This document shows positions 3,722 to 34,141 of a stretch of 64,000 nt of DNA, piece by piece. Each line of letters opens with the position of its first letter. Within the stretch, counting starts at the first letter, position 1. Origin of the DNA: Escherichia phage SP22; the sequence record LC519489.1; one strand, written 5' to 3'. The notes under the pieces are model-generated. The model was not told where the DNA came from. It was given only the letters and a program-made list of their open reading frames with translations, and searched no databases. The position numbers and the translations under genes were made by a program.

Positions 3722-3722
3722 A

Positions 3723-3798: not shown

Positions 3799-3813
3799 AT
3801 TTCAATAAAGTTG

Positions 3814-3842
3814 TTGACATTGAGATGTGACTACTTTATAGT
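3814..3842 (+). promoter_or_regulatory. Sigma70-like promoter TTGACA-N17-TATAGT inside the tRNA array
   Basis: Hexamers and spacing read directly; followed by about 290 nt with no tRNA or ORF. Confidence 0.5.
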
Positions 3843-4136
3843 AACTGAAAATGATTCAGCATATGTATAATTCAAACACCAATACATGAGCGTTAGACGT
3901 AACACAATGTGGGGAAATTTGTTGTACATATTCTGAATAGTTTTCGTTGCGTAGCGTCTATTTTGCAAATTTAAAATAAATGCAAACGACAATGTTTTTC
4001 TGGCAGTAGCTTGATAGGCTAAACACCAGTGAGGTCTTCCAATCCCTCATCAAAGAATTTGGCGTACTCGCCCACGGTATGATTAATAAGGTGGGCATCT
4101 TTAAGGGCTTTCTAAGAGAGTCTTTAAAGATAATTA

Positions 4137-4218
4137 CGGGGCGTATCTCAGCGGTCTTCTAAACCGCCGTTAACCGAGTAAGTGGAGTATGCGGGTTCGA
4201 GTCCTGCCGCCTCGACCA
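4137..4218 (+). tRNA. Atypical tRNA-like gene, anticodon TCT (Arg), no recognisable D-arm and a 23-nt extra region; possible pseudo-tRNA
   Basis: Acceptor cggggcg/cgcctcg, perfect hairpin gcggt-CTTCTAA-accgc, T-arm gcggg-TTCGAGT-cctgc, CCA encoded; only 7 nt between acceptor and anticodon stem. Confidence 0.35.
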
Positions 4219-4232
4219 ATTTTGGAGAAATC

Positions 4233-4580
4233 ATGAAAACTTGTATTAGGTGCAAACTTAGCAAGGATGAAAATGATTTCTACATGAAAGATGGTAAGAG
4301 AACTCATTCATACTGTAAAAAGTGTGTTAATGAGCAAACCATAGAAAGACAAAGAGCACTTAAACTTTCAGCTATTGAGTACAAAGGTGGGGTTTGTCAT
4401 GATTGTGGTAAAAGGTATCATCCAGCAGTGTATGACTTCCATCATTTGAATCCTTCAGAGAAAGATTTTAACATTGGTCATAGAAAAAGTCTGAAGTTCT
4501 CTCAAGAACTAAAAGATGAACTTGACAAATGTGTTTTGCTATGTTCAAATTGCCATAGGGTAAGACATGCAAAGTATTAG
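4233..4580 (+). CDS. HNH homing endonuclease
   Basis: HNH motifs (YDFHHLNPSEKDFNIGH ... LLCSNCHRVRH); start placed at ATG after GGAG; upstream extension in the ORF track overlaps the tRNA-like gene. Confidence 0.7.
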   Translation: MKTCIRCKLSKDENDFYMKDGKRTHSYCKKCVNEQTIERQRALKLSAIEYKGGVCHDCGKRYHPAVYDFHHLNPSEKDFNIGHRKSLKFSQELKDELDKCVLLCSNCHRVRHAKY

Positions 4581-4717
4581 TTAGCAGATTGCTTAGACGA
4601 CCTTATCGGGTCTCCGTGTAAGGAGGTGGTCTGTATCTCATGTTTTCCAGAACATGTAAATAATCTGAGAAGGGGCTTTACAGTGTTGCGAAAATACGGT
4701 AAGCTTCGAATTACAAT

Positions 4718-4800
4718 ATGGGACGATGTTAAGACTCTAAGGCATGAGCAACGGCCTCCAAAACCGTTTCAAAGGGGTTCAACTCCTCCGTCCCATGCCA
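4718..4800 (+). tRNA. tRNA-Trp(CCA)-like with a 7-nt insertion between acceptor and D-arm
   Basis: Acceptor atgggac/gtcccat (7/7), D-arm ctc-TAAGGCAT-gag, anticodon loop CTCCAAA, T-loop TTCAACT, CCA encoded; would complete the 20-amino-acid set. Confidence 0.45.
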
Positions 4801-4813
4801 AAGTCTTATTAGG

Positions 4814-4901
4814 GGTAGGTAGCGGCTAATGGCAGCCAAACAGTCTTGAAAACTGTTGCCACTGTAGAGATACGGTGAGGGTTCGACTCCTTTACTTACC
4901 G
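4814..4901 (+). tRNA. tRNA-Ser(TGA), type II
   Basis: Acceptor ggtaggt/acttacc, D-arm ggc-TAATGGCA-gcc, anticodon stem acagt/actgt, loop CTTGAAA, long variable arm, T-loop TTCGACT; CCA not encoded. Confidence 0.65.
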
Positions 4902-5057
4902 CCTAATAAGATTTATACCGTCCATGCTTGCTCGCATTTTCGGTTTATCCTCGTGTATTGGTTGTACACACTGATAAAGCACCTAGTAGGTGTCACGGAG
5001 AAGAGATAATATCAAGCTCTCCAAAGGTTCTAGTCACCGGATTAAACAAGACTATGC

Positions 5058-5079
5058 AAAGACCAAATTAGGTCTTTTT
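5058..5079 (+). terminator. Weak rho-independent terminator-like hairpin (AAAGACC/GGTCTTT + T-run)
   Basis: Inverted repeat and T-tract read directly; AT-rich stem. Confidence 0.3.
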
Positions 5080-5171
5080 AGAGGGCTTCTAAGGTTATTA
5101 CAGCTTGTTGTGGAACCTTGTTGCTTAGGTTCTTAGAAGTTCTCTAAAAAGATTTAATGGGAGATTGACAC

Positions 5172-5624
5172 ATGGCACGTAGCAGTTTGACTAAAGATAT
5201 TCTTGAACCTTTAGTAAAGGATTCAGTATCATTCAGAGAAGTACTTATTAAGCTTGGGAGAAAACCAGCAGGTGGTTCTCAGTCACATCTAAAGCGTGTT
5301 ATAGAGAAGTTTGAAATAGACACTTCTCATTTCCTCGGACAAAAGGCTGGTAAGGTTAAAACTGTACCAAAAAGAAAGCCTGAAGAAATACTAATTCTGC
5401 GTGAATCTGGTGAAAGAGCTAGGTCTTCACAACTAAGAAGAGCTTTAATAGCCTCTGGTGTCGAATACAAATGCTCTAAATGTGGTCAGTTACCGTATTG
5501 GTTGGGTAACCCTCTAACTCTTGATGTTGACCACATTAACGAGAACTGGTTAGATGATAGAAAAGAGAATCTTCGGTTCTTGTGTCCAAATTGCCACAGT
5601 CAATTCTCAAGACATTTGATTTAA
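5172..5624 (+). CDS. HNH homing endonuclease
   Basis: HNH motif LDVDHINENWLDDRKENLRFLCPNCH; GGGAG RBS upstream. Confidence 0.7.
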   Translation: MARSSLTKDILEPLVKDSVSFREVLIKLGRKPAGGSQSHLKRVIEKFEIDTSHFLGQKAGKVKTVPKRKPEEILILRESGERARSSQLRRALIASGVEYKCSKCGQLPYWLGNPLTLDVDHINENWLDDRKENLRFLCPNCHSQFSRHLI

Positions 5625-5625
5625 T

Positions 5626-5702
5626 GCACCTATAGCCCAACTGGTAGAGGCAGCAGACTTAGAATCTGCTCAGTGTGAGTTCGAATCTCTCTAGGTGTAC
5701 CA
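5626..5702 (+). tRNA. tRNA-Leu(TAG) by anticodon, type I length (short variable arm)
   Basis: Acceptor gcaccta/taggtgt, anticodon stem gcaga/tctgc, loop CTTAGAA, 5-nt variable region, T-loop TTCGAAT, CCA encoded. Confidence 0.6.
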
Positions 5703-5709
5703 AATTAAT

Positions 5710-5785
5710 GCAGGTGTAGCAAAATGGTTATGCGGCTGACTCTTAATCAGTAAGACGATGGGTTCAATTCCCTCCACCTGTACCA
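5710..5785 (+). tRNA. tRNA-Lys(CTT)
   Basis: Acceptor gcaggtg/cacctgt, anticodon stem ctga/tcag, loop CTCTTAA, T-loop TTCAATT, CCA encoded. Confidence 0.65.
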
Positions 5786-5791
5786 AACATT

Positions 5792-5867
5792 GGGGATGTA
5801 GTTTACATGGTTAAAACATAAGTTTTGCAAACTTAAGTACAGGGTTCAATTCCCTGCTTCTCCACCA
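5792..5867 (+). tRNA. tRNA-Ala(TGC)
   Basis: G3-U70 wobble pair present (Ala identity element), D-stem gttt/aaac, anticodon stem taagt/actta, loop TTTGCAA, T-arm caggg-TTCAATT-ccctg, CCA encoded. Confidence 0.75.
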
Positions 5868-5873
5868 ATTAGT

Positions 5874-5948
5874 GCATCCATAGTTTAAACGGGAAAATTA
5901 CAGTCTTCCAAACTGAGGTTGAGGGTTCGATTCCCTCTGGATGCTCCA
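5874..5948 (+). tRNA. tRNA-Gly(TCC)
   Basis: Acceptor gcatcca/tggatgc, anticodon loop CTTCCAA, T-arm gaggg-TTCGATT-ccctc, CCA encoded. Confidence 0.75.
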
Positions 5949-5962
5949 AATTAAGGTGTGAT

Positions 5963-6376
5963 ATGAAAATATGTAGTACTTGCAGAATACCAAAAGATGA
6001 AAGCTTATTCCATAAGAATAAGAACAAGAAAGATGGTCTTCAAAGTCAATGCAAAGACTGTGCAAGACTTCGTGATGCAAAGAGTTATCAAGCAAATGAT
6101 AAAAGGAAAGAGGCTATCAAAAGCACTCGTAACTTCAAGAGGGAGTATAATAAAACTCTAGCTAGAAGGTACAAAGCTTTATGCAAATGTCATATATGTG
6201 GTGAGAAAGAACCAGCTGCACTGGATTTACACCATACAGACCCTTCCCAGAAAGATTTGAATCCTGCATCACTTTATTCATACTCCACAAAAAGATTAAA
6301 AGATGAAATCAGAAAGTGTATCGTCTTGTGTGCTAACTGTCACAGAAAAGTACACGCTGGTATCATACAAGTTTAA
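5963..6376 (+). CDS. HNH homing endonuclease
   Basis: HNH motifs LDLHHTDPSQKDLNPA ... VLCANCHRKVH; Cys-rich N-terminus. Confidence 0.7.
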   Translation: MKICSTCRIPKDESLFHKNKNKKDGLQSQCKDCARLRDAKSYQANDKRKEAIKSTRNFKREYNKTLARRYKALCKCHICGEKEPAALDLHHTDPSQKDLNPASLYSYSTKRLKDEIRKCIVLCANCHRKVHAGIIQV

Positions 6377-6377
6377 T

Positions 6378-6454
6378 GCTGCTTTCGTATAATTGGCTAT
6401 TACACATCCCTTGTAAGGATGGAAATGCAGGTTCGAGTCCTGTGAGCAGCACCA
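6378..6454 (+). tRNA. tRNA-Thr(TGT)
   Basis: Acceptor gctgctt/gagcagc, anticodon stem catcc/ggatg, loop CTTGTAA, T-arm gcagg-TTCGAGT-cctgt, CCA encoded. Confidence 0.75.
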
Positions 6455-6550
6455 ATTTAGAGGTCAAGTGAAAGACCGCTTTGAGTCAACTGAAGACCGT
6501 AACAAATCCCACGGAGTTGAGTTAGCGGCACAACTTCAGACCTCTTTCAT

Positions 6551-6625
6551 ACTCGCTTAGTTTATATGGTAAAACATCACCCTTACAAGATGAAGAAAAA
6601 GGTTCAAGTCCTTTAGTGAGTACCA
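6551..6625 (+). tRNA. tRNA-Val(TAC)
   Basis: Acceptor actcgct/agtgagt, D-arm gttt-ATATGGTA-aaac, anticodon loop CTTACAA, T-arm aaagg-TTCAAGT-ccttt, CCA encoded. Confidence 0.7.
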
Positions 6626-6626
6626 T

Positions 6627-6704
6627 GTTCCAGTATCCCAATTGGCAGAGGATGCAAGCTCAAACCTTGTACTAGTGACGGTTCGAATCCGTCTTGGAAC
6701 ACCA
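6627..6704 (+). tRNA. tRNA-Leu(CAA) by anticodon, short variable arm
   Basis: Acceptor gttccag/ttggaac, anticodon stem gcaag/cttgt, loop CTCAAAC, 6-nt variable region, T-arm gacgg-TTCGAAT-ccgtc, CCA encoded. Confidence 0.6.
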
Positions 6705-6709
6705 ATTTT

Positions 6710-6785
6710 GCAGGATTAGTTCAAATGGATAGAGCAACAGTCTACGAAGCTGTTAATAGGGGTTCGAATCCCTTATCCTGCGCCA
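6710..6785 (+). tRNA. tRNA-Arg(ACG)
   Basis: Acceptor gcaggat/atcctgc, D-arm gttc-AAATGGATA-gagc, anticodon loop CTACGAA, T-loop TTCGAAT, CCA encoded. Confidence 0.75.
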
Positions 6786-6804
6786 ATTTAAAGAGGCTAT
6801 TTAG

Positions 6805-7362
6805 ATGAGATATTTGAAGTATGCTTCATGGATTTTCTTAGCTTTGTTAGAACCATTTGCAGCAATCTTAGCAGTTATCTTAGCACCTTTCGTAGTCCCA
6901 TTCTACAGTGAGAAGAAAGGACACTTACCTTTCGGCTTCAGATGGATGGAGACATATGACAACCCAATTGATGGTGATAAAGGGCATGTCGAACGATGGG
7001 CTAAGATTAGAAAGATTGGCAAGCTTGGTGTCTATATGCAGAGAGTCGGTTGGCTCTGGAGAAACAAAGCTTATAACTTCTCTTACCATGTGTTAGGAAG
7101 AGATGTAAAAGATGTTACTAAGTGGAAAGGCAATATCAACGTAAGTTCTAACCCTGAAGATAATCAGACAGGTTATCTCCTAATGTGGAACAGCAATGCT
7201 TGGGGATTATTCGCTTTTATCCCATCAATTAAAGTCTTTGGTAAACAATTTTACTGGAGAATTTATATTGGGTGGAAGCTAAAAAGTGTTGTCCCAGAAG
7301 AAAGAGCATTCTCAAGGGAAAGAGTTATGTTGGCATTCTTTATTCATCCACTAAGAAAGTAA
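6805..7362 (+). CDS. Hypothetical membrane protein (N-terminal hydrophobic segment, Trp-rich)
   Basis: ORF track; AGAGG RBS upstream; no motif recognised. Confidence 0.5.
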   Translation: MRYLKYASWIFLALLEPFAAILAVILAPFVVPFYSEKKGHLPFGFRWMETYDNPIDGDKGHVERWAKIRKIGKLGVYMQRVGWLWRNKAYNFSYHVLGRDVKDVTKWKGNINVSSNPEDNQTGYLLMWNSNAWGLFAFIPSIKVFGKQFYWRIYIGWKLKSVVPEERAFSRERVMLAFFIHPLRK

Positions 7363-7370
7363 AGATTTAA

Positions 7371-7446
7371 AGGGGATTAGTTTACAAGGTTAAAACCTCG
7401 GTCTTTGAAATCGAAGAAGTTGGTTCAATTCCAACATCCCCCGCCA
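7371..7446 (+). tRNA. tRNA-Gln(TTG)
   Basis: Acceptor aggggat/atccccc with unpaired A1-C72 (weak 1-72 pair is typical of tRNA-Gln), anticodon loop CTTTGAA, T-arm gttgg-TTCAATT-ccaac, CCA encoded. Confidence 0.7.
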
Positions 7447-7448
7447 AT

Positions 7449-7527
7449 GCTCCATTACTCCAATTGGCAGAGAGGCCAGACTTAAAATCTGTGTTATGTA
7501 TCGGTTCGAATCCGATATGGAGTACCA
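7449..7527 (+). tRNA. tRNA-Leu(TAA) by anticodon, short variable arm
   Basis: Acceptor gctccat/atggagt, anticodon stem caga/tctg, loop CTTAAAA, about 8-nt variable region, T-arm atcgg-TTCGAAT-ccgat, CCA encoded. Confidence 0.6.
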
Positions 7528-7532
7528 AATTT

Positions 7533-7608
7533 AGCGGTATAGCATAACTGGCAATGCAGCAGTCTCTGAAGCTGTCTTATTAAGGTTCAAATCCTTATGC
7601 CGCTGCCA
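7533..7608 (+). tRNA. tRNA-Gln(CTG)
   Basis: Acceptor agcggta/tgccgct (A1-U72), anticodon loop CTCTGAA, T-arm taagg-TTCAAAT-cctta, CCA encoded. Confidence 0.7.
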
Positions 7609-7639
7609 CTTCTAAGGGTTCTTACGAGAGTCCTTAAAT

Positions 7640-7715
7640 GTGGCCTTATCATAAATGGTAATGACCCATGCTGTGAACATGGTCTATACGGGTTCAAATC
7701 CCGTAGGTCACCCCA
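7640..7715 (+). tRNA. tRNA-His(GTG)
   Basis: Acceptor gtggcct/aggtcac, D-arm tcat-AAATGGTA-atga, anticodon stem ccatg/catgg, loop CTGTGAA, T-arm acggg-TTCAAAT-cccgt, CCA encoded; no G at -1. Confidence 0.75.
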
Positions 7716-7720
7716 ATTTA

Positions 7721-7797
7721 TAGTCCAAGTAGCTTATATGGTTAAAGCGCGTGTCTGAAAAACATGAGAAGAGGGTTCAAATCCCACTGGACTACCA
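7721..7797 (+). tRNA. tRNA-Phe(GAA)
   Basis: Acceptor tagtcca/tggacta, D-arm gctt-ATATGGTTA-aagc, anticodon stem cgtgt/acatg, loop CTGAAAA, T-loop TTCAAAT; two extra nt at the acceptor/D junction. Confidence 0.65.
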
Positions 7798-7813
7798 ATT
7801 TCAAAGGTGCTTA

Positions 7814-8548
7814 ATGAAAGAGATGACAGAACAAGGTAAGGAGATTTTTAATCTCTTAAAAACCGGTAAAGGGTTTTCTAATCCCCTTATTACTGGTGCA
7901 GCAGTTCTCGGTGGAACCGTAGCTGCCTCTACATCACTTGTAAGCTCTATTAGCTCTGTAACAGACCCTACAATAAAAGATAAGCTTGTTGCTGCTGGAC
8001 TTACAACAGTCCTGCTTAACAGCTTTACAACGAGTCTGACAAGCACTACATCAACTACCAAAACACTGACAGATTACGGTCAAAAATCTATTGATGAGTT
8101 TTCATCACGTATGCAGGTAGCAAAAGGCTATTCTAATGTTATGGGTGCAGCAGGAGAGCAGGTTGGTTGTACACCATTTAGTGGTATTATGGGTGTTGCT
8201 ACAGAGTATGGTCAAAAAGCTATTGACACGATTAACAGTGCACTAGATGGTGTTAATGATGTATTAAGTGACTTACAAGATGCTATTGACAAAGGTCTTG
8301 ATACTATTTCTGATTTAGCTAACCAAGCTGTTAGTAAGATTAATGAAGGTATTTCGAAGATTACAGCTTATGCAGATGAAGTTGTGCAGATGATTGAAGA
8401 AGAAGCTGCTCTTATTGCAGAGTACCTTAAAACGAATATCAATGGGTTCTTAGCAGGTATCTTACCAGACTGGTTTGATGATGCTTGTAAAACTGGTGTA
8501 ATTGATACTATTGCAACACCAGAAATGAAGAACGCATTACAGAAATAA
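7814..8548 (+). CDS. Hypothetical protein (Ser/Thr-rich N-terminal region)
   Basis: ORF track entry 7751-8548 overlaps tRNA-Phe; start moved to ATG after AAGGTG. Confidence 0.5.
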   Translation: MKEMTEQGKEIFNLLKTGKGFSNPLITGAAVLGGTVAASTSLVSSISSVTDPTIKDKLVAAGLTTVLLNSFTTSLTSTTSTTKTLTDYGQKSIDEFSSRMQVAKGYSNVMGAAGEQVGCTPFSGIMGVATEYGQKAIDTINSALDGVNDVLSDLQDAIDKGLDTISDLANQAVSKINEGISKITAYADEVVQMIEEEAALIAEYLKTNINGFLAGILPDWFDDACKTGVIDTIATPEMKNALQK

Positions 8549-8549
8549 T

Positions 8550-8642
8550 GGAAGATTAACCCTAAAAGGTAAGGGAGCAGTTTGCTAAACTGCCAGTAGC
8601 TGAGAAATCGGTGTACCAGTTCAAGTCTGGTATCTTCCTCCA
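8550..8642 (+). tRNA. tRNA-Ser(GCT), type II
   Basis: Acceptor ggaagat/atcttcc, D-stem ccc/ggg, anticodon stem gcagt/actgc, loop TTGCTAA, long variable arm, T-arm accag-TTCAAGT-ctggt, CCA encoded. Confidence 0.7.
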
Positions 8643-8646
8643 ATTT

Positions 8647-8722
8647 GAATCCGTGACAGAAATGGTTATGTGCCTGTCTGCAAAACAGGTTTATAAGGGT
8701 TCGAGTCCCTTCGGATTCTCCA
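8647..8722 (+). tRNA. tRNA-Cys(GCA)
   Basis: Acceptor gaatccg/cggattc, anticodon stem cctgt/acagg, loop CTGCAAA, T-arm aaggg-TTCGAGT-ccctt, CCA encoded. Confidence 0.75.
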
Positions 8723-20426: not shown

Positions 20427-25789
<5,363 letters not shown>

Positions 25790-25790
<1 letters not shown>

Positions 25791-27259
25791 TGGCAGGATT
25801 AACTACAACAGGATTACAAACTCTAAGATATCAGGAAATTTTTGATAATATCAAATCAAGACTTCTTAGAGATATTTCACCCAACCTTGACGTTTCTGAA
25901 GATAGTCAATTAGGACTCTTCCTAGCTTCAATTGCAAGGTCTTTAGCTGATACTCATGAGATTCTATCAGAAATCTACGATGGAGGTACAATTGATAAGG
26001 CTGAAGGGTTTAACCTTGATGATATTACAGCTTTAAATGCGGTATACAGATATGTTGCTCAGGCAACAAGAGGTCAAGTTGAGTTTACTGGAACGACTGG
26101 TGCTACCATTCCTTCAACAACAAGGTTAAGAAGTACTGCCGGAAACATCTTTTATCCAGTTAATAATATTACCCTTACTCCATCATATTGTGTTGAAGCT
26201 ATCCTTGAAGTTAACTCTTTACGAACTGATGCAGATTATGTTATTATTATTGATAACGTCATTTTCTCATATAAACCAACCTCATCAGACACAATCACCA
26301 CGCTTCTAACAAAATTAGCAGAAGCTATTAATGGTGGTATTGTAGCAAAAGCAGAAGTCATTAATGATGGAGCCGCACTAAGAGTCTATAAAGACGAGGG
26401 TGATATCATTGCAAGAACAAATCCTATGGTTGTCACTGCAACAACGTTTCTGACCTTTACAAAAATTACAACTATTTCAGATGTAGTAGCTGAAGAGGTT
26501 GGTGCTACCCCTGCTTTGGCTGGTACGCTTATTGAGATTGAGACAACTGTTGATGGTCTTGACAGTATTTATAACAGGTATGACTTAACAACTGGTAGAA
26601 ACGAAGAAACTGACACAGAACTTAGACAGAGATATTTAGAATCTTTAGCAGTTACTGGTGTAGGGACTTTGGATGCAATTGTAGCTGCTGTTAAAAGAGT
26701 TCAAGGTGTCTCAGATGCTTCAGGTGTTGAGAATGATACTGAAGAGACAAGCTCAGAAGGTCTTCCACCAAAATCTTTTAAGATTGTTGTAGTTGGTGGT
26801 CAAAATGATAATGTTGCTCAAGCAATCTGGGATACAAAACCTGCTGGTATTAGAGCTTATGGCTCAATTTTTGGTACAGCCCATGATTTAGGTGGATTGG
26901 CACATAATATTTATTTTAGCAGACCAACACCAAAATACGCATTTGTTAAAGTCTCTTACTCTTTATATGATGAAGAAAGCTTGACAATCCCTGAAGAGGA
27001 TATCAGAGACAGCATTGTACAAGGTATTAATGCTTATGGGAGAACTCTTAAGGTTGGTAATGATGTTATCCCTAACAGAATCTATGGATATATCTATGAC
27101 GTAATTAAAGGTATTGAGATTAATGAGGTTAAAGTAGCCTTATCAAACAGCCAATCAGTCCCACCTAGTGACGGGCAGTATACTACAGCAAGAATTACTG
27201 TTGACGGTGACCAATATACTGTTTGGGAAAGCAGCCAGTATACCATCACTAAGGAGTAA
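25790..27259 (+). CDS. Baseplate J-like protein (putative)
   Basis: 489 aa, position in baseplate cluster. Confidence 0.45.
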
Positions 27260-27261
27260 TA

Positions 27262-28116
27262 ATGTTTGAAAAGATTGATAGTGTTTATTACAAAACACTT
27301 GATGAAAGGACTGTAACACAGTTTAAAGATAAATTTATCTATACAAGTATCTTGAAAGCAATCACTGATGAATTACAAACTCTAGAGGATGTTTGCTGGC
27401 AGATGCACACAGAGAGAAATATCAGGACGTCAGTAGGCCAACAGCTTGATAACATTGGCTCACTGATTAAAGTTCCTAGACCTTTAGGTGCAGATGATGA
27501 AACATATAGGGCTATGCTTTATATTCAAATCTTCCTAAGACGCTCTGACACCACCCCAACATTCTTGCAAAAAGCAATTATGACGCTATACGGTGCAACT
27601 TTCTCTCAGATTTTTGAGCATATTACTCCTAAGACTGGTGGTATCGTTATCCGTATCAACACTAGAAAAAGCGTTCTAGATGCTGCATATACACTGTCAA
27701 AGATTTCTGCAACAACTACTGGCTCCGCTGTTATCTTAAGAGATGTTACTTTAAATGGGACTGCTTGGACACCTGTAGAGGTTGCTGATTCATCACTTGC
27801 TATTGTTGATGATAAAGAGAACTGGTTTGTAACTGATGCTAACAGAGGTCTTGTCACAAATAACACTGGTGGCTCTCTGGAGTCCAACTTAGTAGGTAGT
27901 CTTGCAGATGCTGGTGTTATTGATGGTTACTTTAGGGTTGACAGAACAGCAAACTCACAGAGTGATGATTATATGACTGTAGATAGGTCCAATAATAGTG
28001 GTTATTTCATCGTTGGTAAAGAAGCTATTGCAGGTGGTGCATATGGAATCATGGCTGAGGTTGCACAAATTGTCAAAGGCAGAAAAGATAAATCACAACA
28101 AGAAGGAAATTCTTAA
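27262..28116 (+). CDS. Baseplate/tail fibre attachment protein (putative)
   Basis: Position. Confidence 0.4.
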
Positions 28117-28418
28117 TGGCAGTTTTAAATTGGTCTACAAATGAAGTAGATACTGATGGTAACCAGTTAAAAGTTTTACCACCACCGGAAGTTCAAGAGA
28201 CAGGTCTTTTAAAGGGTGAACCTATGGGTAGACAGTGGTTCAACTATATTATCAACTACCTGCTTAATAAAGTAAACGGCACTGTTGGTGAAGTTCGCTC
28301 ATATGCAACTGAGCAACCAGATTTAGTGGCTAATGGATGGAATCTGATTAAATCTGAGACAGGGACTGCATCAACAAGTACAGGAAACCTTTACACATAT
28401 GAATATGTAGGAGCTTAA
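28116..28418 (+). CDS. Hypothetical tail protein
   Basis: ORF track. Confidence 0.4.
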
Positions 28419-28420
28419 TA

Positions 28421-29596
28421 ATGGCAGTAGGTGAAATTCAAATTAGTGCCTTGCCACAAGCGGCCTTACCAGTTGATTTAAGTGATATCTTCCATCTTAA
28501 GCAAGGTGTTGAGGATAAAAGATGTACGCTTGAACAGTTGTTAGCACCTCACGCATCTTTGAGGAATAATCCTCATGGTGTAACCAAATCGCAAGTGGGT
28601 CTTGATAATGTTATTAACTCTCTCCAATTAGTTGCAGCTAATAACTTGTCAGACATTGTGAATGTTGCTGAGGCAAGAGCAAATCTACAAATTATGTCGT
28701 CAGAGGAAGTGAATAACTTAATTCAGCAACATATTGACGACAAAAGTAACCCACACAATACAACGAAAGCGCAGGTCGGTTTAAGTAATGTTCAGAACTG
28801 GACAACATCTAATCTGTACAATGAAGATGCTGATAAGTACGCTACCGCGAGAGCAGTGAATAATTTATACAAAGCTATTCAAGCATCATATCCAGTAGGG
28901 ACTATTCATCTATCTGTTAACTCTGCTAACCCATCAACTTACTTGCTTTGTGGAGGTACTTGGGAGTTAGTTTCTAAAGGTAGAGCACTAGTTGGTTATG
29001 ATACAGATTCTAGACCTGTTGGTTCAATGTTTGGTTCTCAGACTGTAGCATTAACGAATAATAATTTACCAGCACACACACACTCTATCTATCTAACAGG
29101 TGGTGGTCATACACACTCTGCAAGTGTATCTATCTCTAGTTTTGATTATGGTTCAAAGAGTACATCAACTTTTGACTACGGTACAAAAACGACTAATAGT
29201 ACTGGTGCTCATACTCACACGTTTAGTGGTACAACAAGTAATGCTGGTAACCACAACCATAGAGTACCTATGAGGGGTAATGATAGGGGCGGTACAAATG
29301 CTATTACTGCATCTGCTGATGCTGGTGTTGGTAATGCTATGTATACTGATTTAGCTGGTGCTCACACCCATAGCTTCTCAGGCACAACTGCATCATCTGG
29401 TGCTCATAGCCATACTGTTGCAATTGGTGCTCACAGCCACACTGTTAATATTGGTTCACACAGTCATACTGGCACTGTTACTGTTTCTAGCTCTGAGCAT
29501 ACACACTCAGGGACATCTGGTTCTGTTGGTGGTGGTCAAGCTTTCAGTGTTGAGCAACCATCTTTTGTAGTATATGTGTGGCAGAGAACAGCTTAA
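28421..29596 (+). CDS. Tail fibre protein with C-terminal His-x-His repeat array
   Basis: Repeated GAHSHTV / HTHS motifs; C-terminus resembles that of the next ORF (ends W-x-RTA). Confidence 0.6.
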   Translation: MAVGEIQISALPQAALPVDLSDIFHLKQGVEDKRCTLEQLLAPHASLRNNPHGVTKSQVGLDNVINSLQLVAANNLSDIVNVAEARANLQIMSSEEVNNLIQQHIDDKSNPHNTTKAQVGLSNVQNWTTSNLYNEDADKYATARAVNNLYKAIQASYPVGTIHLSVNSANPSTYLLCGGTWELVSKGRALVGYDTDSRPVGSMFGSQTVALTNNNLPAHTHSIYLTGGGHTHSASVSISSFDYGSKSTSTFDYGTKTTNSTGAHTHTFSGTTSNAGNHNHRVPMRGNDRGGTNAITASADAGVGNAMYTDLAGAHTHSFSGTTASSGAHSHTVAIGAHSHTVNIGSHSHTGTVTVSSSEHTHSGTSGSVGGGQAFSVEQPSFVVYVWQRTA

Positions 29597-29642
29597 TTTC
29601 TTTACAGGGGTTTTGTAGCCCCTTTTAAGAGGAAAATTTATA

Positions 29643-32012
29643 ATGGCAGATTACAAATTGAGTCAATTAAACTCAATCGACACAATTCGTTCAGAAGACC
29701 TATTGCACATCAGAGTTAAGAAAAGACCTGAAATGTTGGGTGACGAAGACCGTAGAATGACCTATCAAGACTTCTTAGCTTCCTTCAAACTAGAAAGGTT
29801 TGTTCAGATTGCTGGGAGTACTATGACGGGAGACTTAGGTATTGTCAAGTTACTTTACGGTGGTAAGGCAGTATTTGACCCAACAGGCTCTTCTGAGATT
29901 ACTATTGGGGATATTTTAAAGACTTTTAAAATTAACTCAAATGGGCTTAAACTCACTATTGCAGATGCCACAAGGTCGGCAACTGTTTATCATACTTTGA
30001 ATAAACCAAGCCCTAATGAACTTGGTATGAGAACTAATGAAGAGAATGATGCAAGATATGCAAGGCTTGCTGTTACAAACACATTCTCTGGAACTCAGAA
30101 CATTCAAGGTGATGCTAACTTACTTCGTCTTAGAAACCAGAATGCAAATAATGCGCAATATATTGAGGGTGTGAACTTAGATGGTTCAGCTAGATGGTGG
30201 GTTGGTATTGGTAGTAATGGCTCTGATGAAGTAAAACTGTACAATAACAAATACAACTCAGCTTTGACTATTGCAAGCAATATCTCTGTTAATAAGTCTT
30301 TAGCAATCACTGGTCAAGTTCAACCTTCAGACTTCTCTAACTTAGATGCTAGATACTTCACTCAGACAGTTGCTAATCAGAGATTTGCACAGTTAGCTGG
30401 TAATAACACTTTTACAGGTGCTAACACATTTAGGACTATGAGTGTTATTTCAAATGCTGCTGCTATCACACTGCAATGTGCATCAGCAAACGAATCCCTG
30501 TATCTACTTGCAAAAGATTATGAAGGTGGAAACTTATGGTATCTTGGTAAAGGTAGTTCAGGTGCTGGTGTAACTATCTACAACTATACCACTAACACCT
30601 CTTTGGTCTTAGATGCTGCTGGGGTATCAGCAAATAAAAATGTCAGAATCACTGGTCAAGTTCAACCTTCAGATTGGGCTAACATTGACTCTAGATATAT
30701 TCCGGCAGCAACATTAAGCACGATTGCAAGAACTAATGCACAAAATACTTTTAATGGTGTACAGAAAGTTGTTACGGATGATGAAGCCCTAATTGTGAAA
30801 AACTCTACTCAGAACAGACCATTGTATATCCGTGGTGTGGACACTGCTAATGTTTCAAGATGGTGGGTAGGTGTTGGTGGGGCAGATACTAATGACGTGA
30901 CACTAAATAACAGTTTTTCTGGAACTCAGTTAGTTTTAGGTAACTCATCTGCAAGTATCAACAAAACACTAACTCTAACTGGACAGATTCAACCTTCAGA
31001 TTTCTCTAACTTAGATGCTAGATACTACGTTAAATCTGCAACAGATGCAAAGTACTTATGGTCATCAGCCAGAGCTTTGGTGGAGGAGTCTGATGGTGGT
31101 GTGGCTTGGAACCAACCTTCAGGAATTTATGCAGAGACTATCAATGGTGGTGGTTCAAGCCGTTTAGTCTTACACCTATTCGCTAATATGTTAGCATCAA
31201 CACCAACTGCACAATTAAGATTTGATTACAGGAATAGTGGTTTATGGTATAGAACAGCCAGAGATAGGTATGGTTTTGAGGCTGAATGGTCTAAGGTTTA
31301 CACTGAAGCTCAGAAACCAACACCTTCAGAAATTGGTGCATACACTAAAGCAGAGACTGACCAGAAGATTGCAGAGGCGATTAGTGACTCTACAGACCTG
31401 AATAAAATCTATCCAGTAGGTATTGTAACGTGGTTTAACAGTAATGTTAACCCTAATACAGCACTTCCTGGATTAACTTGGACGTACCTGAACAATGGTG
31501 TTGGTAGAACTATTAGAATTGCAGCAGCAAATGGTTCAGATGTTGCTACAACTGGTGGTTCAGACTCTGTAACGTTGTCTGTCGGTAACTTACCTTCACA
31601 TACACATAGCTTCTCTGCTACCACTTCATCATTTGATTATGGTACTAAGACAACAAATACGACTGGCAACCATGCTCATGATAGAGGTAACATGGAAATC
31701 TCTGGTGTGTTTGGTTGGTTCAGAAGTGACAATGGTGCATTTTACACTGCGAGTGGTGCGTTTGTGATGGGTAGTAGTCAGGCTTCACATGGCTTCACAG
31801 GCTCTAACTTCACTTACGGTGCTCCTGTTGATTTCCACGCGTCAAGAACTTGGACAGGTGTAACTAATACAACCGGTAACCACGCTCACAGCGTCGGTAT
31901 TGGTGCTCACAACCACACAGTTAGCGGTAACACTGGTGGTACAGGTTCTGGTTCAGCATTTAGTGTTACTAACCAGTTCTACAAGTTAATGGCTTGGGTG
32001 AGAACTGCTTAA
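29643..32012 (+). CDS. Long tail fibre protein with internal repeats and C-terminal His-x-His array
   Basis: Three copies of ITGQVQPSD(F/W)SNLD(A/S)RY; C-terminal NHAHSVGIGAHNHTV. Confidence 0.65.
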   Translation: MADYKLSQLNSIDTIRSEDLLHIRVKKRPEMLGDEDRRMTYQDFLASFKLERFVQIAGSTMTGDLGIVKLLYGGKAVFDPTGSSEITIGDILKTFKINSNGLKLTIADATRSATVYHTLNKPSPNELGMRTNEENDARYARLAVTNTFSGTQNIQGDANLLRLRNQNANNAQYIEGVNLDGSARWWVGIGSNGSDEVKLYNNKYNSALTIASNISVNKSLAITGQVQPSDFSNLDARYFTQTVANQRFAQLAGNNTFTGANTFRTMSVISNAAAITLQCASANESLYLLAKDYEGGNLWYLGKGSSGAGVTIYNYTTNTSLVLDAAGVSANKNVRITGQVQPSDWANIDSRYIPAATLSTIARTNAQNTFNGVQKVVTDDEALIVKNSTQNRPLYIRGVDTANVSRWWVGVGGADTNDVTLNNSFSGTQLVLGNSSASINKTLTLTGQIQPSDFSNLDARYYVKSATDAKYLWSSARALVEESDGGVAWNQPSGIYAETINGGGSSRLVLHLFANMLASTPTAQLRFDYRNSGLWYRTARDRYGFEAEWSKVYTEAQKPTPSEIGAYTKAETDQKIAEAISDSTDLNKIYPVGIVTWFNSNVNPNTALPGLTWTYLNNGVGRTIRIAAANGSDVATTGGSDSVTLSVGNLPSHTHSFSATTSSFDYGTKTTNTTGNHAHDRGNMEISGVFGWFRSDNGAFYTASGAFVMGSSQASHGFTGSNFTYGAPVDFHASRTWTGVTNTTGNHAHSVGIGAHNHTVSGNTGGTGSGSAFSVTNQFYKLMAWVRTA

Positions 32013-32091: not shown

Positions 32092-32289
32092 ATGCCTACA
32101 ATCCTAGCAATTCTTCTAAAAAATCTAGGTAGCTTCTTCTGGAAACTCGTTTTATCCCTTCTAAGTGAATACATGATTGAGAAAGTGTTCTTCAGACTTG
32201 CAAGATATCTTGCGAGTAAAACAGATACACCTATTGATGATGAGTTCGTAGATAACTTAGAAAAAGCTTTTAAGGGGGAGAATAAATGA
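32092..32289 (+). CDS. Small hypothetical membrane protein
   Basis: Hydrophobic N-terminus; ORF track. Confidence 0.4.
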   Translation: MPTILAILLKNLGSFFWKLVLSLLSEYMIEKVFFRLARYLASKTDTPIDDEFVDNLEKAFKGENK

Positions 32290-32657
32290 AGTGGCTAGAG
32301 GAAGCTTTTAAAAATAATATTGGTGCAATTGTAGTTGGTATTTTTAGTGTTATTGGGATGTATACCACCATGCAAGTTTCGGATGGTAAGCAAGAAGTGT
32401 CTGTCACAACAAAGTTACAACAGCTAGATAATTATTCCAAAAGTAACTATTCAGCTATTCGTGATTTACAGTCTGACATGAGACTGATTCAGCTAGGGAT
32501 GGAGAACCAGAAAGTTCAGTTAGAGAATGTTAAGGGTGAGAATGCAAAACTTACCAAAACTCTTGATAAATTCTCTGACAGTGTGAACAATCTGGCTCAA
32601 TCAGTATCAGCCTTGCAAGCTATTACTGAAAAGAACACAAAGAATACTGAAAAATAA
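32286..32657 (+). CDS. Hypothetical membrane-anchored coiled-coil protein
   Basis: One hydrophobic segment then helical Gln/Lys-rich region. Confidence 0.4.
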   Translation: MKWLEEAFKNNIGAIVVGIFSVIGMYTTMQVSDGKQEVSVTTKLQQLDNYSKSNYSAIRDLQSDMRLIQLGMENQKVQLENVKGENAKLTKTLDKFSDSVNNLAQSVSALQAITEKNTKNTEK

Positions 32658-32664
32658 AATTTTA

Positions 32665-32692
32665 AGGCTCCCGTAAAAAGGAGCCTTTTTTG
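32665..32692. terminator. Bidirectional rho-independent terminator between convergent modules
   Basis: AGGCTCC-cgtaaaa-GGAGCCT hairpin flanked by A-run and T-run. Confidence 0.65.
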
Positions 32693-32694: not shown

Positions 32695-33594
32695 TTATTT
32701 ACCTACTGATAAAGGTGCTTCAATTTTTCCTGCATGTTGGTAATTATTAATACCACCGATAAAATCACTTGCAGTGAGATGTTTTAAGTCACTTAAAGTG
32801 TTAAGTGGGATACCAATCTCAAAAGTTGGTGCATGGAACTCTTCATTGTTCATCAGTTCATAAACCTGTTTCATATGGTTCTGATAAATCTGAGTATCTC
32901 CAAAGACTCCTATCAAGTACCGTGGAGTGTATCCAGTCATCTTACAAAGAACTTCCAGAATAAAGCCGTAAGATGCAATGTTAAATGGAAGTCCTAAAAA
33001 GGTGTCTACAGAACGCTGATACCATTGCAAATCTACTTCACCTTCATTAGTAATGTAAATCTGAAACAGAACATGACAAGGTGCTAAAGCCATTGAGTTT
33101 GCTGCGATATCTGCTGCATTCCAAGCATTAACAAGCATGTATCTGTCTGTGATATCACCCTTCATCTTCGTTACTAAGGTCTCTAGCTGGTCTACAACAC
33201 AACCGTTATGACCTTCAAAGTTTCTCCACTGAACTCCATAGATTCTCCCACCTGCATCCTCTAACCAATCTTGTTCAGAAGAATAATTAGAGCTTAACCA
33301 ACGTTTAAAATCATCTGACCAGATAGTCCAGCGTTCTCCGTCATTTTCATCCCAAGTACGGTAACGAAGTTCACCCAGCTTATTCTCACCATTCAGGAAC
33401 CATAAAGCCTCCCCAATAACTTGCCGTGTAAACACCTGTTTAGATGTTAAGAGCGGGAAACCAGTCCTCATATCAAAACGAAACTGAGGTGGAGCAAAAG
33501 CAGAGATAACATCTCCAGTTCGTGTAGTACGCAGTTCACCAACGGATAAAACATGGTTCAGGATATTTTTGTAACTTGTATCTGCTTGTGACAT
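32695..33594 (-). CDS. thyA: Thymidylate synthase
   Basis: Active-site ALAPCH motif; 299 aa. Confidence 0.85.
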   Translation of the reverse strand: MSQADTSYKNILNHVLSVGELRTTRTGDVISAFAPPQFRFDMRTGFPLLTSKQVFTRQVIGEALWFLNGENKLGELRYRTWDENDGERWTIWSDDFKRWLSSNYSSEQDWLEDAGGRIYGVQWRNFEGHNGCVVDQLETLVTKMKGDITDRYMLVNAWNAADIAANSMALAPCHVLFQIYITNEGEVDLQWYQRSVDTFLGLPFNIASYGFILEVLCKMTGYTPRYLIGVFGDTQIYQNHMKQVYELMNNEEFHAPTFEIGIPLNTLSDLKHLTASDFIGGINNYQHAGKIEAPLSVGK

Positions 33595-33595
33595 A

Positions 33596-34141
33596 TCAAA
33601 AGTGTCCTTTTACTTGTGGAACATAAATTTCAAAAGTTGCTTTACCATCCTCTGATGGTTTTGACTGTACCTTTGTAAACACACGGTTATCATACAGCTT
33701 CTCAAAGAAGTTTTCAAAAGGTAAATGCACAGTGGCCTCTTCAGTAACTTTATGGAAAACAGTATGGAACACCACACTAGCATACGGTAAAGCATTGACA
33801 AGGATATCTGCACCACCAATTACAAAGACATCTTCATCAATAGAGCTATCAAGATACTTCAAAAATGCTCCAAATGACTCTTTACTGGCTTTAGCATACA
33901 TTACATCATCTTTGCCAAAGTCTATGCCTAAGTATGGTACAGAATTTGTTAAGATGAGGTTTGCACGTTCTGGTAAAGGTTTACTACCCAGAGTCTTAAA
34001 AGTCTCATTACCCATGACTACTAAGTTATTTTTAGTGAGTCTCTTAAACTCTTGCATGTCCTGTTTATGTCGAGGCCACGGCATACCAGTCGGTGTACCA
34101 AATTCACCGTTTTCACCACTTGCAAATATTAGCTTAATCAT
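33596..34141 (-). CDS. Dihydrofolate reductase
   Basis: GMPWP and VVMGNETFKTLG motifs; adjacent to thyA. Confidence 0.75.
   Translation of the reverse strand: MIKLIFASGENGEFGTPTGMPWPRHKQDMQEFKRLTKNNLVVMGNETFKTLGSKPLPERANLILTNSVPYLGIDFGKDDVMYAKASKESFGAFLKYLDSSIDEDVFVIGGADILVNALPYASVVFHTVFHKVTEEATVHLPFENFFEKLYDNRVFTKVQSKPSEDGKATFEIYVPQVKGHF

What the first reader, a model, noticed from the sequence alone, without database searches (positions are those of the whole stretch)
28421..32012. Tail fibre proteins with His-x-His arrays and a shared C-terminal module
Both fibre ORFs end with clusters of HxH motifs (GAHSHTV, GAHNHTV) and a similar terminal W-x-RTA sequence. The longer one also has three roughly 110-aa internal repeats (ITGQVQPSD(F/W)SNLD(A/S)RY). 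HxH arrays coordinate metal ions in some phage fibre tips; the shared C-terminal module suggests domain exchange between the fibres and a likely receptor-binding or host-range determinant.
Basis: partly seen in the sequence, partly recalled or inferred. Interest (0 to 1): 0.45.

Follow-up and report, generated by a model that had tools for sequence, protein, structure and literature searches.

The report
Felixounavirus tail fibres with T4-like tips
These are the short and long tail fibres of the known coliphage SP22, and both end in the iron-stapled, receptor-binding needle tip already solved for phage T4 and described for a sister phage, so the finding is real but ordinary.

Summary
ORFs 28421-29596 (391 aa) and 29643-32012 (789 aa) carry 9 and 4 HxH motifs; 0 of 20,000 shuffles reach either count. 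Both end in W-x-RTA. The longer ORF has three repeats of about 112 aa.

Both proteins match Escherichia phage SP22 (Felixounavirus) exactly. They sit after two baseplate wedge genes and a 100-aa gene, the gene order reported for phage Bas63. The 2025 Bas63 cryo-EM paper describes this arrangement: a short and a long fibre, each ending in a T4 gp37-like collar, HxH needle and head.

Residues 145-362 of the short fibre match the T4 gp37 tip crystal structure (2XGF, E=1.8e-27). All seven iron-binding HxH positions are kept and two more are added. The long fibre keeps four.

The head between the HxH strands is the most variable part of the short fibre and tracks the isolation host. The two tips are homologous (hhalign 99.7%) but only 32-36% identical, so recent exchange between the two fibres is not supported.

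The long-fibre head cassette (window 31628-31897) does show exchange. It is shared with gp37 of Tequatrovirus CJY920 (92% aa, 88% nt, sharp boundaries) and with lambdoid prophage side tail fibres (71%).

Metal binding and receptor specificity rest on homology only. Monomer AlphaFold models were uninformative. Verdict: already known, low interest.

The parts
28421..29596 (+). TF-A: short tail fibre (counterpart of Bas63 STF gp26), 391 aa
   Evidence: ORF. PHROG 2097 tail fibre, E=5e-139. Exact match to SP22 BBU53681.1. Gene order matches Bas63.
28853..29074 (+). TF-A collar domain, first part (aa 145-218), of the T4 gp10/gp12/gp37 D10 type
   Evidence: Pfam Gp10_C, aa 154-276, E=5.9e-18, above the curated cut-off. 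PDB matches to T4 gp10 and to gp37 2XGF.
29075..29260 (+). TF-A ascending needle strand with HxH at aa 219, 230, 264 and 278
   Evidence: They align to T4 gp37 HxH 883, 915 and 929, plus one extra 11-aa unit.
29261..29362 (+). TF-A head (aa 281-314): hypervariable distal tip and inferred receptor contact
   Evidence: Identity to the query is 0.20-0.39 and entropy reaches 3.1 bits among 34 close relatives. It aligns to the T4 tip subdomain 932-959. Identity tracks isolation host.
29363..29506 (+). TF-A descending needle strand with HxH at aa 315, 329, 338, 347 and 360
   Evidence: They align to T4 966, 980, 989 and 998, plus one extra. The 27-nt / 9-aa periodicity lies here.
29507..29593 (+). 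TF-A C-terminal segment ending YVWQRTA; inferred to return to and complete the collar
   Evidence: Y385, W387 and R389 are invariant. hhalign aligns it to the TF-B C-terminus. T4 D10 is built from residues 811-881 plus 1010-1026.
29643..32012 (+). TF-B: long tail fibre (counterpart of Bas63 LTF gp27), 789 aa
   Evidence: ORF. PHROG 4277 full-length match. Exact match to SP22 BBU53682.1, named 'putative tail fiber'.
30069..31025 (+). Three gp37_trimer repeats (aa 143-238, 258-352, 366-461), each ending in a conserved QPSDxxNxDxRY linker
   Evidence: Pfam PF20744, three stretches. Alignment at 40-43% identity. Unit HMM finds three copies. Domain cores are variable and linkers about 100% conserved.
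31089..31373 (+). gp37_C / Mu tail-fibre-S-like domain (aa 483-577), which lies in a swapped region
   Evidence: Pfam PF12604, E=5e-16. PDB 8JU3, E=2.3e-23. aa 461-560 are wholly replaced in an 846-849 aa class of relatives.
31392..31619 (+). TF-B collar domain and first HxH (aa 584-659; HxH at 653)
   Evidence: Pfam Gp10_C scores 25.9 bits, just under its cut-off of 27. hhalign to the TF-A family gives 99.7%. About 100% conserved among relatives.
31620..31922 (+). TF-B head cassette (aa 660-760): HxH 677, then an aromatic-rich 67-aa head without HxH, then HxH 747 and 756
   Evidence: 92% aa and 88% nt identity to Tequatrovirus CJY920 gp37, with sharp boundaries at about 31628 and 31897. 71% identity to prophage Stf proteins.
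31923..32009 (+). TF-B C-terminal segment ...GSGSAFSVTNQFYKLMAWVRTA
   Evidence: 100% conserved in 63 relatives. Aligned to the TF-A C-terminus.
28116..28418 (+). 100-aa protein upstream of the fibres; by position the long-fibre platform (Bas63 gp25, T4 gp9-like)
   Evidence: Gene order. PHROG 4141. Bas63 description. The assignment is by synteny only.
25790..28116 (+). Baseplate wedge 2 (489 aa, Baseplate_J) and wedge 1 (284 aa): the attachment sites for the fibres
   Evidence: Pfam and PHROG matches. Sizes match Bas63 gp23 (489 aa) and gp24 (285 aa).

Best explanation
The region encodes the two tail fibres of the Felixounavirus phage SP22: a short fibre (TF-A, 391 aa) and a long fibre (TF-B, 789 aa). 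Each is inferred to be a homotrimer. The N-terminus docks on the baseplate. The C-terminus is a T4 gp37-type receptor-binding tip.

How the tip is built (inferred from T4 gp37 and Bas63):
- The chain forms a collar domain of the gp10/gp12/gp37 D10 type.
- It then runs outward as one strand of a six-stranded needle.
- It forms a small head at the far end and doubles back along the needle.
- It finishes with the conserved ...W-x-R-T-A segment, which completes the collar.
- Along the three-fold axis, each HxH motif from the three chains supplies six histidines. These coordinate one metal ion octahedrally (Fe2+ in T4) and staple the needle together.

TF-A would have up to nine such sites: the seven T4 positions plus two more. 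TF-B has four, with the two most distal rungs and the small T4-type tip replaced by a larger aromatic-rich head.

The head is the receptor-contacting, host-range-determining part. For this genus the receptor is most likely an LPS core structure.

The conserved HxH-coding flanks also mark the boundaries of a head cassette that has been exchanged between phage lineages.

Shown here: homology, motif positions, the variability pattern and the cassette exchange.
Inferred, not shown: trimer state, metal binding, chain topology and receptor.
For: Identity:
- Both proteins match phage SP22 proteins exactly.
- The backbone is 97-98% identical to Felixounavirus genomes.
- The gene order and sizes 489/284/100/391/789 aa fit the Bas63 order gp23-gp27; the paper gives lengths only for gp23 (489 aa) and gp24 (285 aa).

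Tip homology:
- TF-A 145-362 matches 2XGF at E=1.8e-27.
- TF-B 647-768 matches 2XGF at E=4e-5.
- Pfam Gp10_C matches in both.
- hhalign of TF-A family against TF-B family gives 99.7%.

HxH mapping to T4 883/915/929/966/980/989/998: TF-A covers 7 of 7 plus 2 extra; TF-B covers 4 of 7.

T4 background: seven Fe atoms, and D10 formed from residues 811-881 plus 1010-1026 (PMC6957217).

Bas63: both fibres have a collar, an HxH needle and a head, and the tips are the most variable parts (PMC12609058).

Variability:
- The TF-A head is hypervariable between conserved HxH scaffolds.
- Its identity tracks the isolation host.
- TF-B relatives have several unrelated heads between identical flanks.

Cassette exchange: 92% aa and 88% nt identity with Tequatrovirus CJY920 gp37, with a step in nucleotide identity from about 0.5 to about 0.9 at 31628 and 31897. 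There is 71% identity to lambdoid prophage Stf proteins.

Receptor: LPS core use is reported for the genus (PMC8594841; PMC11821841).
Against: - No direct evidence of metal, trimer or receptor.
- The AlphaFold2 monomer models were poor: TF-A pLDDT 66 and pTM 0.24; TF-B tip pLDDT 45.
- Foldseek against the PDB gave nothing significant; the best hit was the T4 gp10 C-terminal domain at E=0.09. The predicted geometry could therefore not be checked.
- TF-B lacks three of the seven T4 sites, and its Gp10_C score (25.9 bits) is just under the Pfam cut-off.
- In TF-B the most variable or swapped segment is aa 461-560 (the Mu-S-like domain), not the head. The head may therefore not be the only specificity determinant.
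- The Sf14 authors argued for receptor contacts proximal to the tip.
- No homologue of the T4 gp38 chaperone is found in the window.
- The host correlation rests on isolation-host labels only.
Confidence: 0.9

Rival explanations
1. One reading: the shared C-terminal module reflects domain exchange between the two fibre genes of this phage, by gene conversion or a recent duplication.
For: The two C-terminal modules are clearly homologous from the collar to the last residue. The genes are adjacent.
Against: - Identity is only 32-36%.
- The TF-A needle is 58% identical to E. coli prophage fibres and 44% to T4 gp37, so it is closer to foreign tips than to TF-B.
- HxH number (9 against 4) and head size differ.
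- No DNA-level similarity between the two genes turned up in the tandem-repeat scan.
- The same two-tip arrangement is present across the genus, so any duplication is old.
Confidence: 0.05
2. The host-range determinant of the long fibre is mainly the Mu-S-like / gp37_C domain (aa 461-560) binding laterally, with the HxH tip serving chiefly as a structural cap.
For: - aa 461-560 is the least conserved stretch among 785-791 aa relatives (identity 0.5-0.6).
- It is completely replaced, with about 60 aa added, in an 846-849 aa class that keeps an almost identical collar and tip.
- It is homologous to part of the Mu fibre protein S (8JU3).
- The Sf14 authors suggest receptor contact proximal to the tip.
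Against: - The head itself varies: several unrelated head sequences lie between identical flanks.
- The head has been exchanged as a discrete cassette with T-even gp37 and prophage Stf proteins. That is hard to explain if it carried no specificity.
- In T4 the tip residues bind LPS and OmpC.
Confidence: 0.3
3. The HxH arrays are a beta-strand sequence habit and do not bind metal here, or they bind Zn (as my recollection of T4 gp12 has it) rather than Fe.
For: No metal data exist for this protein or for Bas63. The Bas63 fibre density was too poor to model side chains. TF-B has lost three of the seven T4 positions without obvious harm.
Against: - H219, H230, H232, H278, H280, H315, H317, H338, H340, H347 and H349 are invariant or at least 90% conserved across 60 homologues down to 35% identity.
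- They align one-to-one with the T4 iron ligands.
- T4 H929A and H931A are lethal.
Confidence: 0.1

Closest known systems
T4 gp37 receptor-binding tip (PDB 2XGF; domains D10 collar and D11 needle/tip)
   Same: - Same order: collar, ascending HxH strand, head, descending HxH strand, C-terminal return.
- TF-A matches at E=1.8e-27 and about 44% identity, with all seven HxH positions aligned.
- The 9-aa spacing of the descending HxH units is the same.
- Both end in R-x-A.
   Different: - TF-A has two extra HxH units.
- TF-B has only four HxH and a 67-aa aromatic-rich head in place of the 28-aa T4 tip.
- The fibres here are single short polypeptides (391 and 789 aa), not the four-protein T4 long fibre.
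- No gp38 homologue is present in the window.
Bas63 (Felixounavirus) short fibre gp26 and long fibre gp27 (cryo-EM, PMC12609058)
   Same: - Same genus and same gene order.
- Both fibres carry a gp37-like tip with HxH motifs.
- The long fibre has repeated beta-helix domains separated by conserved linkers.
- The tips and the repeat cores are variable across the genus.
   Different: - HxH counts differ: Bas63 short fibre 7 and long fibre 6; SP22 has 9 and 4.
- Bas63 is reported to have five beta-helix domains; only three are detectable as sequence repeats here.
- No direct sequence comparison to Bas63 was made.
Shigella phage Sf14 gp52 and gp53 (two 'long' tail fibres, PMC11821841)
   Same: A related Ounavirinae phage with two fibre types, a Gp10_C-like domain and Mu-fibre similarity. 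Its long-fibre head is 82% identical to the TF-B head.
   Different: The authors read the domain order differently, placing the C24-like domain mid-fibre, and call both fibres long.
Lambdoid prophage side tail fibres (Stf: PF08400 phage_tail_N plus Collar, e.g. P0243 and P0244)
   Same: They carry the same head cassette as TF-B (71% over 102 aa) inside a gp37-like HxH needle. The TF-A needle is 58% identical to another such protein.
   Different: The N-terminal attachment and shaft are unrelated. Their collar and C-terminus are of the T4 type (...NYIVRLA), not the Felixounavirus type (...AWVRTA).
T4 gp12 and gp10 collar domains (Pfam Collar PF07484, Gp10_C PF21939)
   Same: The same collar fold family by Pfam and PDB sequence match. 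The 'NLP-x-H-T-H-S' motif at the collar exit resembles the gp12 HxH metal site; that resemblance is from my own recollection and was not tested.
   Different: gp10 lacks the HxH needle. gp12 has a single metal site.
Phage Mu tail fibre protein S (PDB 8JU3) / Pfam gp37_C
   Same: TF-B 483-577 matches Mu S 336-427 at E=2.3e-23.
   Different: Only this one domain is shared.

Membership tests
T4 gp37-type receptor-binding tip (collar-needle-head) | Collar domain of the gp10/gp11/gp12/gp37-D10 fold family | tested here: met
   TF-A: Pfam Gp10_C at 66.6 bits (cut-off 27) and PDB matches to gp10 and gp37. TF-B: Gp10_C at 25.9 bits, just under the cut-off, but hhalign to the TF-A family gives 99.7%.
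T4 gp37-type receptor-binding tip (collar-needle-head) | HxH motifs at the positions of the seven iron ligand pairs of gp37 (883, 915, 929, 966, 980, 989, 998) | tested here: met
   TF-A: 7 of 7 aligned, plus 2 extra. TF-B: 4 of 7 (883, 915, 980, 989), so only partly met for TF-B.
T4 gp37-type receptor-binding tip (collar-needle-head) | Needle and head inserted within the collar: the chain goes out, reverses at the head and returns, and the C-terminus completes the collar | tested here: inconclusive
   The sequence order fits: ascending HxH, head, descending HxH, then a conserved C-terminal segment. The 3D topology could not be verified because the monomer AF2 models had pLDDT 66 and 45, and Foldseek gave no significant hit.
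T4 gp37-type receptor-binding tip (collar-needle-head) | Homotrimer with octahedral coordination of metal ions by six histidines on the three-fold axis | not testable with these tools
   Only monomer prediction is available, and there are no metal data.
T4 gp37-type receptor-binding tip (collar-needle-head) | Head or tip subdomain contacts the receptor and determines host range | tested here: inconclusive
   Indirect support only: the TF-A head is hypervariable, its identity tracks isolation host, and the TF-B head is a mobile cassette. There are no binding data.
T4 gp37-type receptor-binding tip (collar-needle-head) | Dedicated chaperone gp38 encoded next to the fibre gene (a property of T4, not of the fold) | tested here: not met
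   tblastn of CJY920 gp38 against the window found no hit better than E=0.2. The two downstream ORFs belong to PHROG families of unknown function. Only 64 kb of the 87 kb genome was searched.
Felixounavirus short and long tail fibre pair (Bas63 gp26/gp27) | Gene order wedge 2, wedge 1, long-fibre platform, short fibre, long fibre at the end of the baseplate module | tested here: met
   ORFs of 489, 284, 100, 391 and 789 aa in that order. Bas63 gp23 is 489 aa and gp24 is 285 aa. Baseplate_J and PHROG baseplate hits.
Felixounavirus short and long tail fibre pair (Bas63 gp26/gp27) | Sequence membership in the genus fibre families | tested here: met
   PHROG 2097 (E=5e-139) and PHROG 4277 (full length). 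Exact SP22 proteins. 235 phage records match, nearly all Felixounavirus.
Felixounavirus short and long tail fibre pair (Bas63 gp26/gp27) | Long fibre with five beta-helix repeat domains separated by 'triple alpha helix and turn' linkers | tested here: inconclusive
   Three repeats are detected by sequence. The two flanking domains (aa ~50-120 and 462-557) end in similar KP[ST]PxE[LI]G linkers but are not detectable as repeats.
Pfam gp37_trimer (PF20744) and gp37_C (PF12604) | Score above the curated Pfam cut-off | tested here: met
   PF20744 at 260 bits (cut-off 21.7), three stretches. PF12604 at 59 bits (cut-off 22.5).

The most novel reading that the evidence does not exclude
The roughly 100-aa long-fibre head cassette (aa 660-760) is a self-contained, portable receptor-binding module. 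It has moved fairly recently (88% nt identity) between three fibre systems that differ in architecture and assembly: Tequatrovirus gp37, which in T4 needs gp38 and gp57A; lambdoid Stf; and the Felixounavirus long fibre, with no recognisable chaperone gene nearby.

If so, either the HxH needle and head fold without a dedicated chaperone, or Felixounaviruses encode an unrecognised one. In either case the head could be used as a plug-in host-range cassette across phage families. The enlarged aromatic-rich head, which lacks the two distal metal rungs, would also be a head fold with no solved structure.
Probability: 0.25. Interest if true: 0.4.

Novelty: already known. Interest (0 to 1): 0.15.

Why it matters
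The fibres decide which bacteria this O157-associated phage can attack. Knowing that both tips are gp37-type needles, with a small head delimited by conserved HxH flanks, shows where host-range engineering should cut. That architecture is already published for the genus (Bas63, 2025) and for T4 (2010).

The small addition here is a clean example of one head cassette shared between a Felixounavirus long fibre, a T4-like gp37 and prophage side tail fibres. It supports using the HxH flanks as swap points across phage families.

Tried and rejected
- AlphaFold2 monomer model of full TF-A from a 60-sequence alignment: mean pLDDT 66, pTM 0.24, head below 50. Not usable for metal geometry.
- Foldseek of that model against the PDB: no hit at E<=0.001. 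The best was the T4 gp10 C-terminal domain (E=0.09), followed by long-hairpin pore toxins. Uninformative, as expected for one chain of an intertwined trimer.
- AlphaFold2 monomer model of the TF-B tip (aa 575-789) from 45 low-diversity sequences: pLDDT 45. Discarded.
- The primary T4 tip paper (PMC2996694) and the T4 fibre review (PMC5899708) are not held. I used PMC6957217 for domain boundaries instead.
- Literature search for phage SP22: nothing.
- Literature search for 'His box' recombination: no paper contained the phrase. The idea that HxH-coding boxes act as recombination sites in T-even gp37 (Tetart et al., J Mol Biol 1996/1998) therefore rests on my memory only.
- An HMM of the three repeat units did not detect a fourth or fifth copy in TF-B, nor any copy in TF-A.
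- tblastn of a T4-type gp38 against the window: no hit.
- PDB sequence search with the TF-B head alone: only 2XGF, through the HxH flanks (E=7e-5). This head type has no solved structure.
- No direct alignment to the Bas63 proteins was made. The accession was not in the main text, and no HHxH-bearing relative was among the proteins fetched up to that point.
- Rejected: the HxH clusters as chance or low-complexity sequence (shuffles; conservation).
- Rejected: recent exchange between the two fibres.

Full report
**1. What is there**

The window has two adjacent + strand ORFs exactly as reported: 28421..29596 (391 aa, called TF-A here) and 29643..32012 (789 aa, TF-B). Both protein sequences are exact matches to proteins of Escherichia phage SP22, which has an 87,251-bp genome. 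TF-A is BBU53681.1, annotated 'hypothetical protein'. TF-B is BBU53682.1, annotated 'putative tail fiber'.

The surrounding 20 kb is 97-98% identical to many Felixounavirus genomes, and the fibre region is about 93% identical to wV8-like phages. Upstream lie a Baseplate_J wedge protein (489 aa), a second wedge protein (284 aa) and a 100-aa protein.

**2. Check of the observation**

- TF-A has nine HxH motifs, holding 18 of its 24 histidines. TF-B has four.
- None of 20,000 shuffles of either protein reached the observed count; the means were 1.4 and 0.2.
- The C-termini are ...VYVWQRTA and ...LMAWVRTA. Y385, W387 and R389 are invariant in 60 TF-A homologues, down to 35% identity.
- TF-B has three repeats of about 112 aa. 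They are 40-43% identical to each other and each ends in [IL]TGQ[VI]QPSD[FW]xN[LI]D[AS]RY.
- Pfam calls the repeats gp37_trimer, three stretches, E=8.7e-79. An HMM built from the units finds exactly three copies.
- The two C-terminal modules are homologous from the collar to the final residue. BLASTP gives 32% identity, E=2e-10. hhalign gives 99.7% probability, E=5e-27.

**3. What it is**

TF-A residues 145-362 match the crystal structure of the T4 long-tail-fibre tip (gp37, PDB 2XGF) at E=1.8e-27. Its collar also matches T4 gp10 and Pfam Gp10_C (E=5.9e-18).

In gp37 numbering the T4 HxH motifs are at 883, 915 and 929 (outgoing strand) and at 966, 980, 989 and 998 (returning strand). TF-A places an HxH opposite every one of them and adds one unit at each proximal end. 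The 9-aa spacing of the returning units is the same as in T4, and it shows up as a 27-nt DNA periodicity at 29379-29471.

The T4 domain boundaries come from PMC6957217:
- The collar D10 is built from residues 811-881 plus 1010-1026.
- The needle D11 is inserted into D10.
- The tip subdomain is 932-959.
- Seven iron atoms are coordinated along the needle.
- Alanine substitution of the iron ligands H929 and H931 is lethal.

TF-B keeps four of the seven positions (883, 915, 980, 989). In place of the distal rungs and the small T4 tip it has a 67-aa aromatic-rich stretch with no HxH. TF-B residues 483-577 match the phage Mu fibre protein S (8JU3, E=2.3e-23) and Pfam gp37_C.

**4. This is already described**

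The 2025 cryo-EM study of Bas63, another Felixounavirus, reports the following (PMC12609058):
- The gene series wedge 2 (489 aa), wedge 1 (285 aa), long-fibre platform, short fibre gp26 and long fibre gp27.
- A chain that doubles back at the head.
- Seven HxH in the short fibre and six in the long fibre.
- A long fibre with five beta-helix domains separated by conserved linkers.
- Tips and repeat cores as the most variable parts across the genus.

The SP22 genes fit this description. They differ only in HxH number (9 and 4) and in head type. The Sf14 paper describes the same two fibres in a related phage.

**5. Variability and host range**

*Short fibre.* In 34 close TF-A relatives, the N-terminus and collar are 0.8-0.9 identical to the query. 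The HxH scaffolds are conserved. Residues 271-315, the head, fall to 0.20-0.39 identity with up to 3.1 bits of column entropy. A tblastn search with the TF-A head (aa 262-322) gave:
- 100% identity in phages isolated on O157 or other STEC strains;
- 65% in Shigella phages;
- 41-48% in phages isolated on K-12.

These are isolation hosts only, so the correlation is suggestive.

*Long fibre.* In 63 TF-B relatives:
- The collar (aa 581-660) and the last 29 residues are about 100% conserved.
- The head (aa 681-740) is about 0.7 identical.
- The repeat cores are 0.65-0.75 identical, while the linkers are about 1.0.
- The Mu-S-like domain (aa 461-560) is the least conserved part. It is completely replaced in an 846-849 aa class.
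- Some relatives have six HxH and quite different heads between identical flanks.

**6. Exchange: not between the two fibres, but with other phages**

The two tips share only 32-36% identity. The TF-A needle is 58% identical to an E. coli prophage fibre and 44% identical to T4 gp37. Recent exchange between the two SP22 genes is not supported.

The TF-B head cassette tells a different story:
- A search of 1.84 billion representative proteins with TF-B aa 640-789 found the head in lambdoid prophage side-tail-fibre proteins (P0243 and P0244). These carry Pfam phage_tail_N plus Collar and end like T4 in ...NYIVRLA. Identity is 71% over 102 aa.
- tblastn against phage genomes found the head in gp37 of Tequatrovirus CJY920 at 92% amino-acid identity over 103 residues.
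- At the DNA level the match is 88.4% over 302 nt.
- A sliding comparison shows identity jumping from about 0.45-0.5 to 0.87-1.0 between window positions about 31628 and 31897, then falling back.
- The boundaries lie in the conserved SSFDYGTK...G-x-H-x-H and G-x-H-x-H-x-VGIGAH-x-HTV segments.
- Within Felixounavirus, head identity (55-99%) does not follow backbone relatedness.

This is a clean case of the long-known mosaic exchange of fibre tips between unrelated phages. It is an example, not a new principle. The idea that HxH-coding 'His boxes' act as recombination sites in T-even gp37 comes from my recollection of Tetart et al. and could not be checked in the library.

**7. Mechanism, and what is shown versus inferred**

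Shown:
- homology to the T4 tip;
- conservation and positions of the HxH motifs;
- the conserved C-terminal segment;
- the variability pattern;
- the cassette exchange.

Inferred from T4 and Bas63:
- Each fibre is a trimer.
- Each HxH triplet coordinates one Fe2+ on the axis, giving up to 9 sites in TF-A and 4 in TF-B.
- The W-x-RTA end returns to the collar.
- The head contacts an LPS-core receptor. LPS core is the reported receptor type for the genus.

Only monomer prediction is available, and it gave pLDDT 66 and 45 with no significant Foldseek match.

**8. Open points**

- No homologue of T4 gp38 is found in the window. The two small ORFs downstream of TF-B belong to PHROG families of unknown function. 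How these tips fold is unknown.
- The relative roles of the TF-B head and the swapped Mu-S-like domain in specificity are unresolved.

**9. Verdict**

The finding is real and correctly located. Its interpretation is mostly right, except for exchange between the two fibres. It corresponds to a published, structurally characterised architecture in the same genus. Novelty: already known. Interest: low (0.15). The head-cassette sharing with a T4-like phage and with prophage fibres is a modest extra.

Noticed in passing
window 31628-31897 (TF-B aa ~660-760); L001:3968-4269: The long-fibre head cassette is shared with gp37 of Tequatrovirus CJY920 (PQ349265.1). Identity is 92% aa over 103 residues and 88% nt over 302 nt. 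Nucleotide identity steps from about 0.5 to about 0.9 at the conserved HxH-coding flanks. The cassette is also 72% identical in Mosigvirus ZQ3 gp37 and 71% in lambdoid prophage Stf proteins.
   Followed up: yes
window 31023-31322 (TF-B aa 461-560): The Mu-S-like / gp37_C domain of the long fibre is the least conserved part among relatives. It is wholly replaced, with about 60 aa added, in an 846-849 aa class (wV8, O157 typing phages, ZX4221, ECOH1) that keeps a nearly identical collar and tip. It may be a second host-range module.
   Followed up: partly
window 24748-25371 (+), HxH at 25309-25317: A 207-aa protein matching Pfam PF18352, the N-terminal domain of a phage spike-type protein, carries H188-T-H190. 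Bas63 reports an HxH at the same positions in its puncturing spike, where it is thought to bind iron.
   Followed up: partly
window 28421-29596: In the GenBank record of SP22 this exact protein (BBU53681.1) is annotated 'hypothetical protein', although close relatives grouped with it at 90% identity are annotated as tail fibre proteins. This is an annotation gap.
   Followed up: yes
window 28568-28792 (TF-A aa 50-64 and 110-124): There are two copies of an NPHxxTKxQVGLxNV motif 60 aa apart in the short-fibre shaft. [quoted passage not shown]
   Followed up: no
window 32092-32657 (+): Two small overlapping ORFs (65 and 123 aa) with hydrophobic N-termini lie directly after the long-fibre gene. 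They match PHROG 402 and 4038, both of unknown function. No recognisable fibre chaperone is present here.
   Followed up: partly
window 32664-32687: A GC-rich hairpin with T-runs on both strands looks like a bidirectional terminator. It sits where the + strand structural module meets the - strand block, and GC skew changes sign here.
   Followed up: no
window 32695-34141 (-): Thymidylate synthase (Pfam E=2.4e-73) and dihydrofolate reductase (E=4.5e-23) genes lie back to back on the minus strand.
   Followed up: partly
window 2383-8722 (+): A cluster of 25 tRNA genes lies upstream of the structural module.
   Followed up: no
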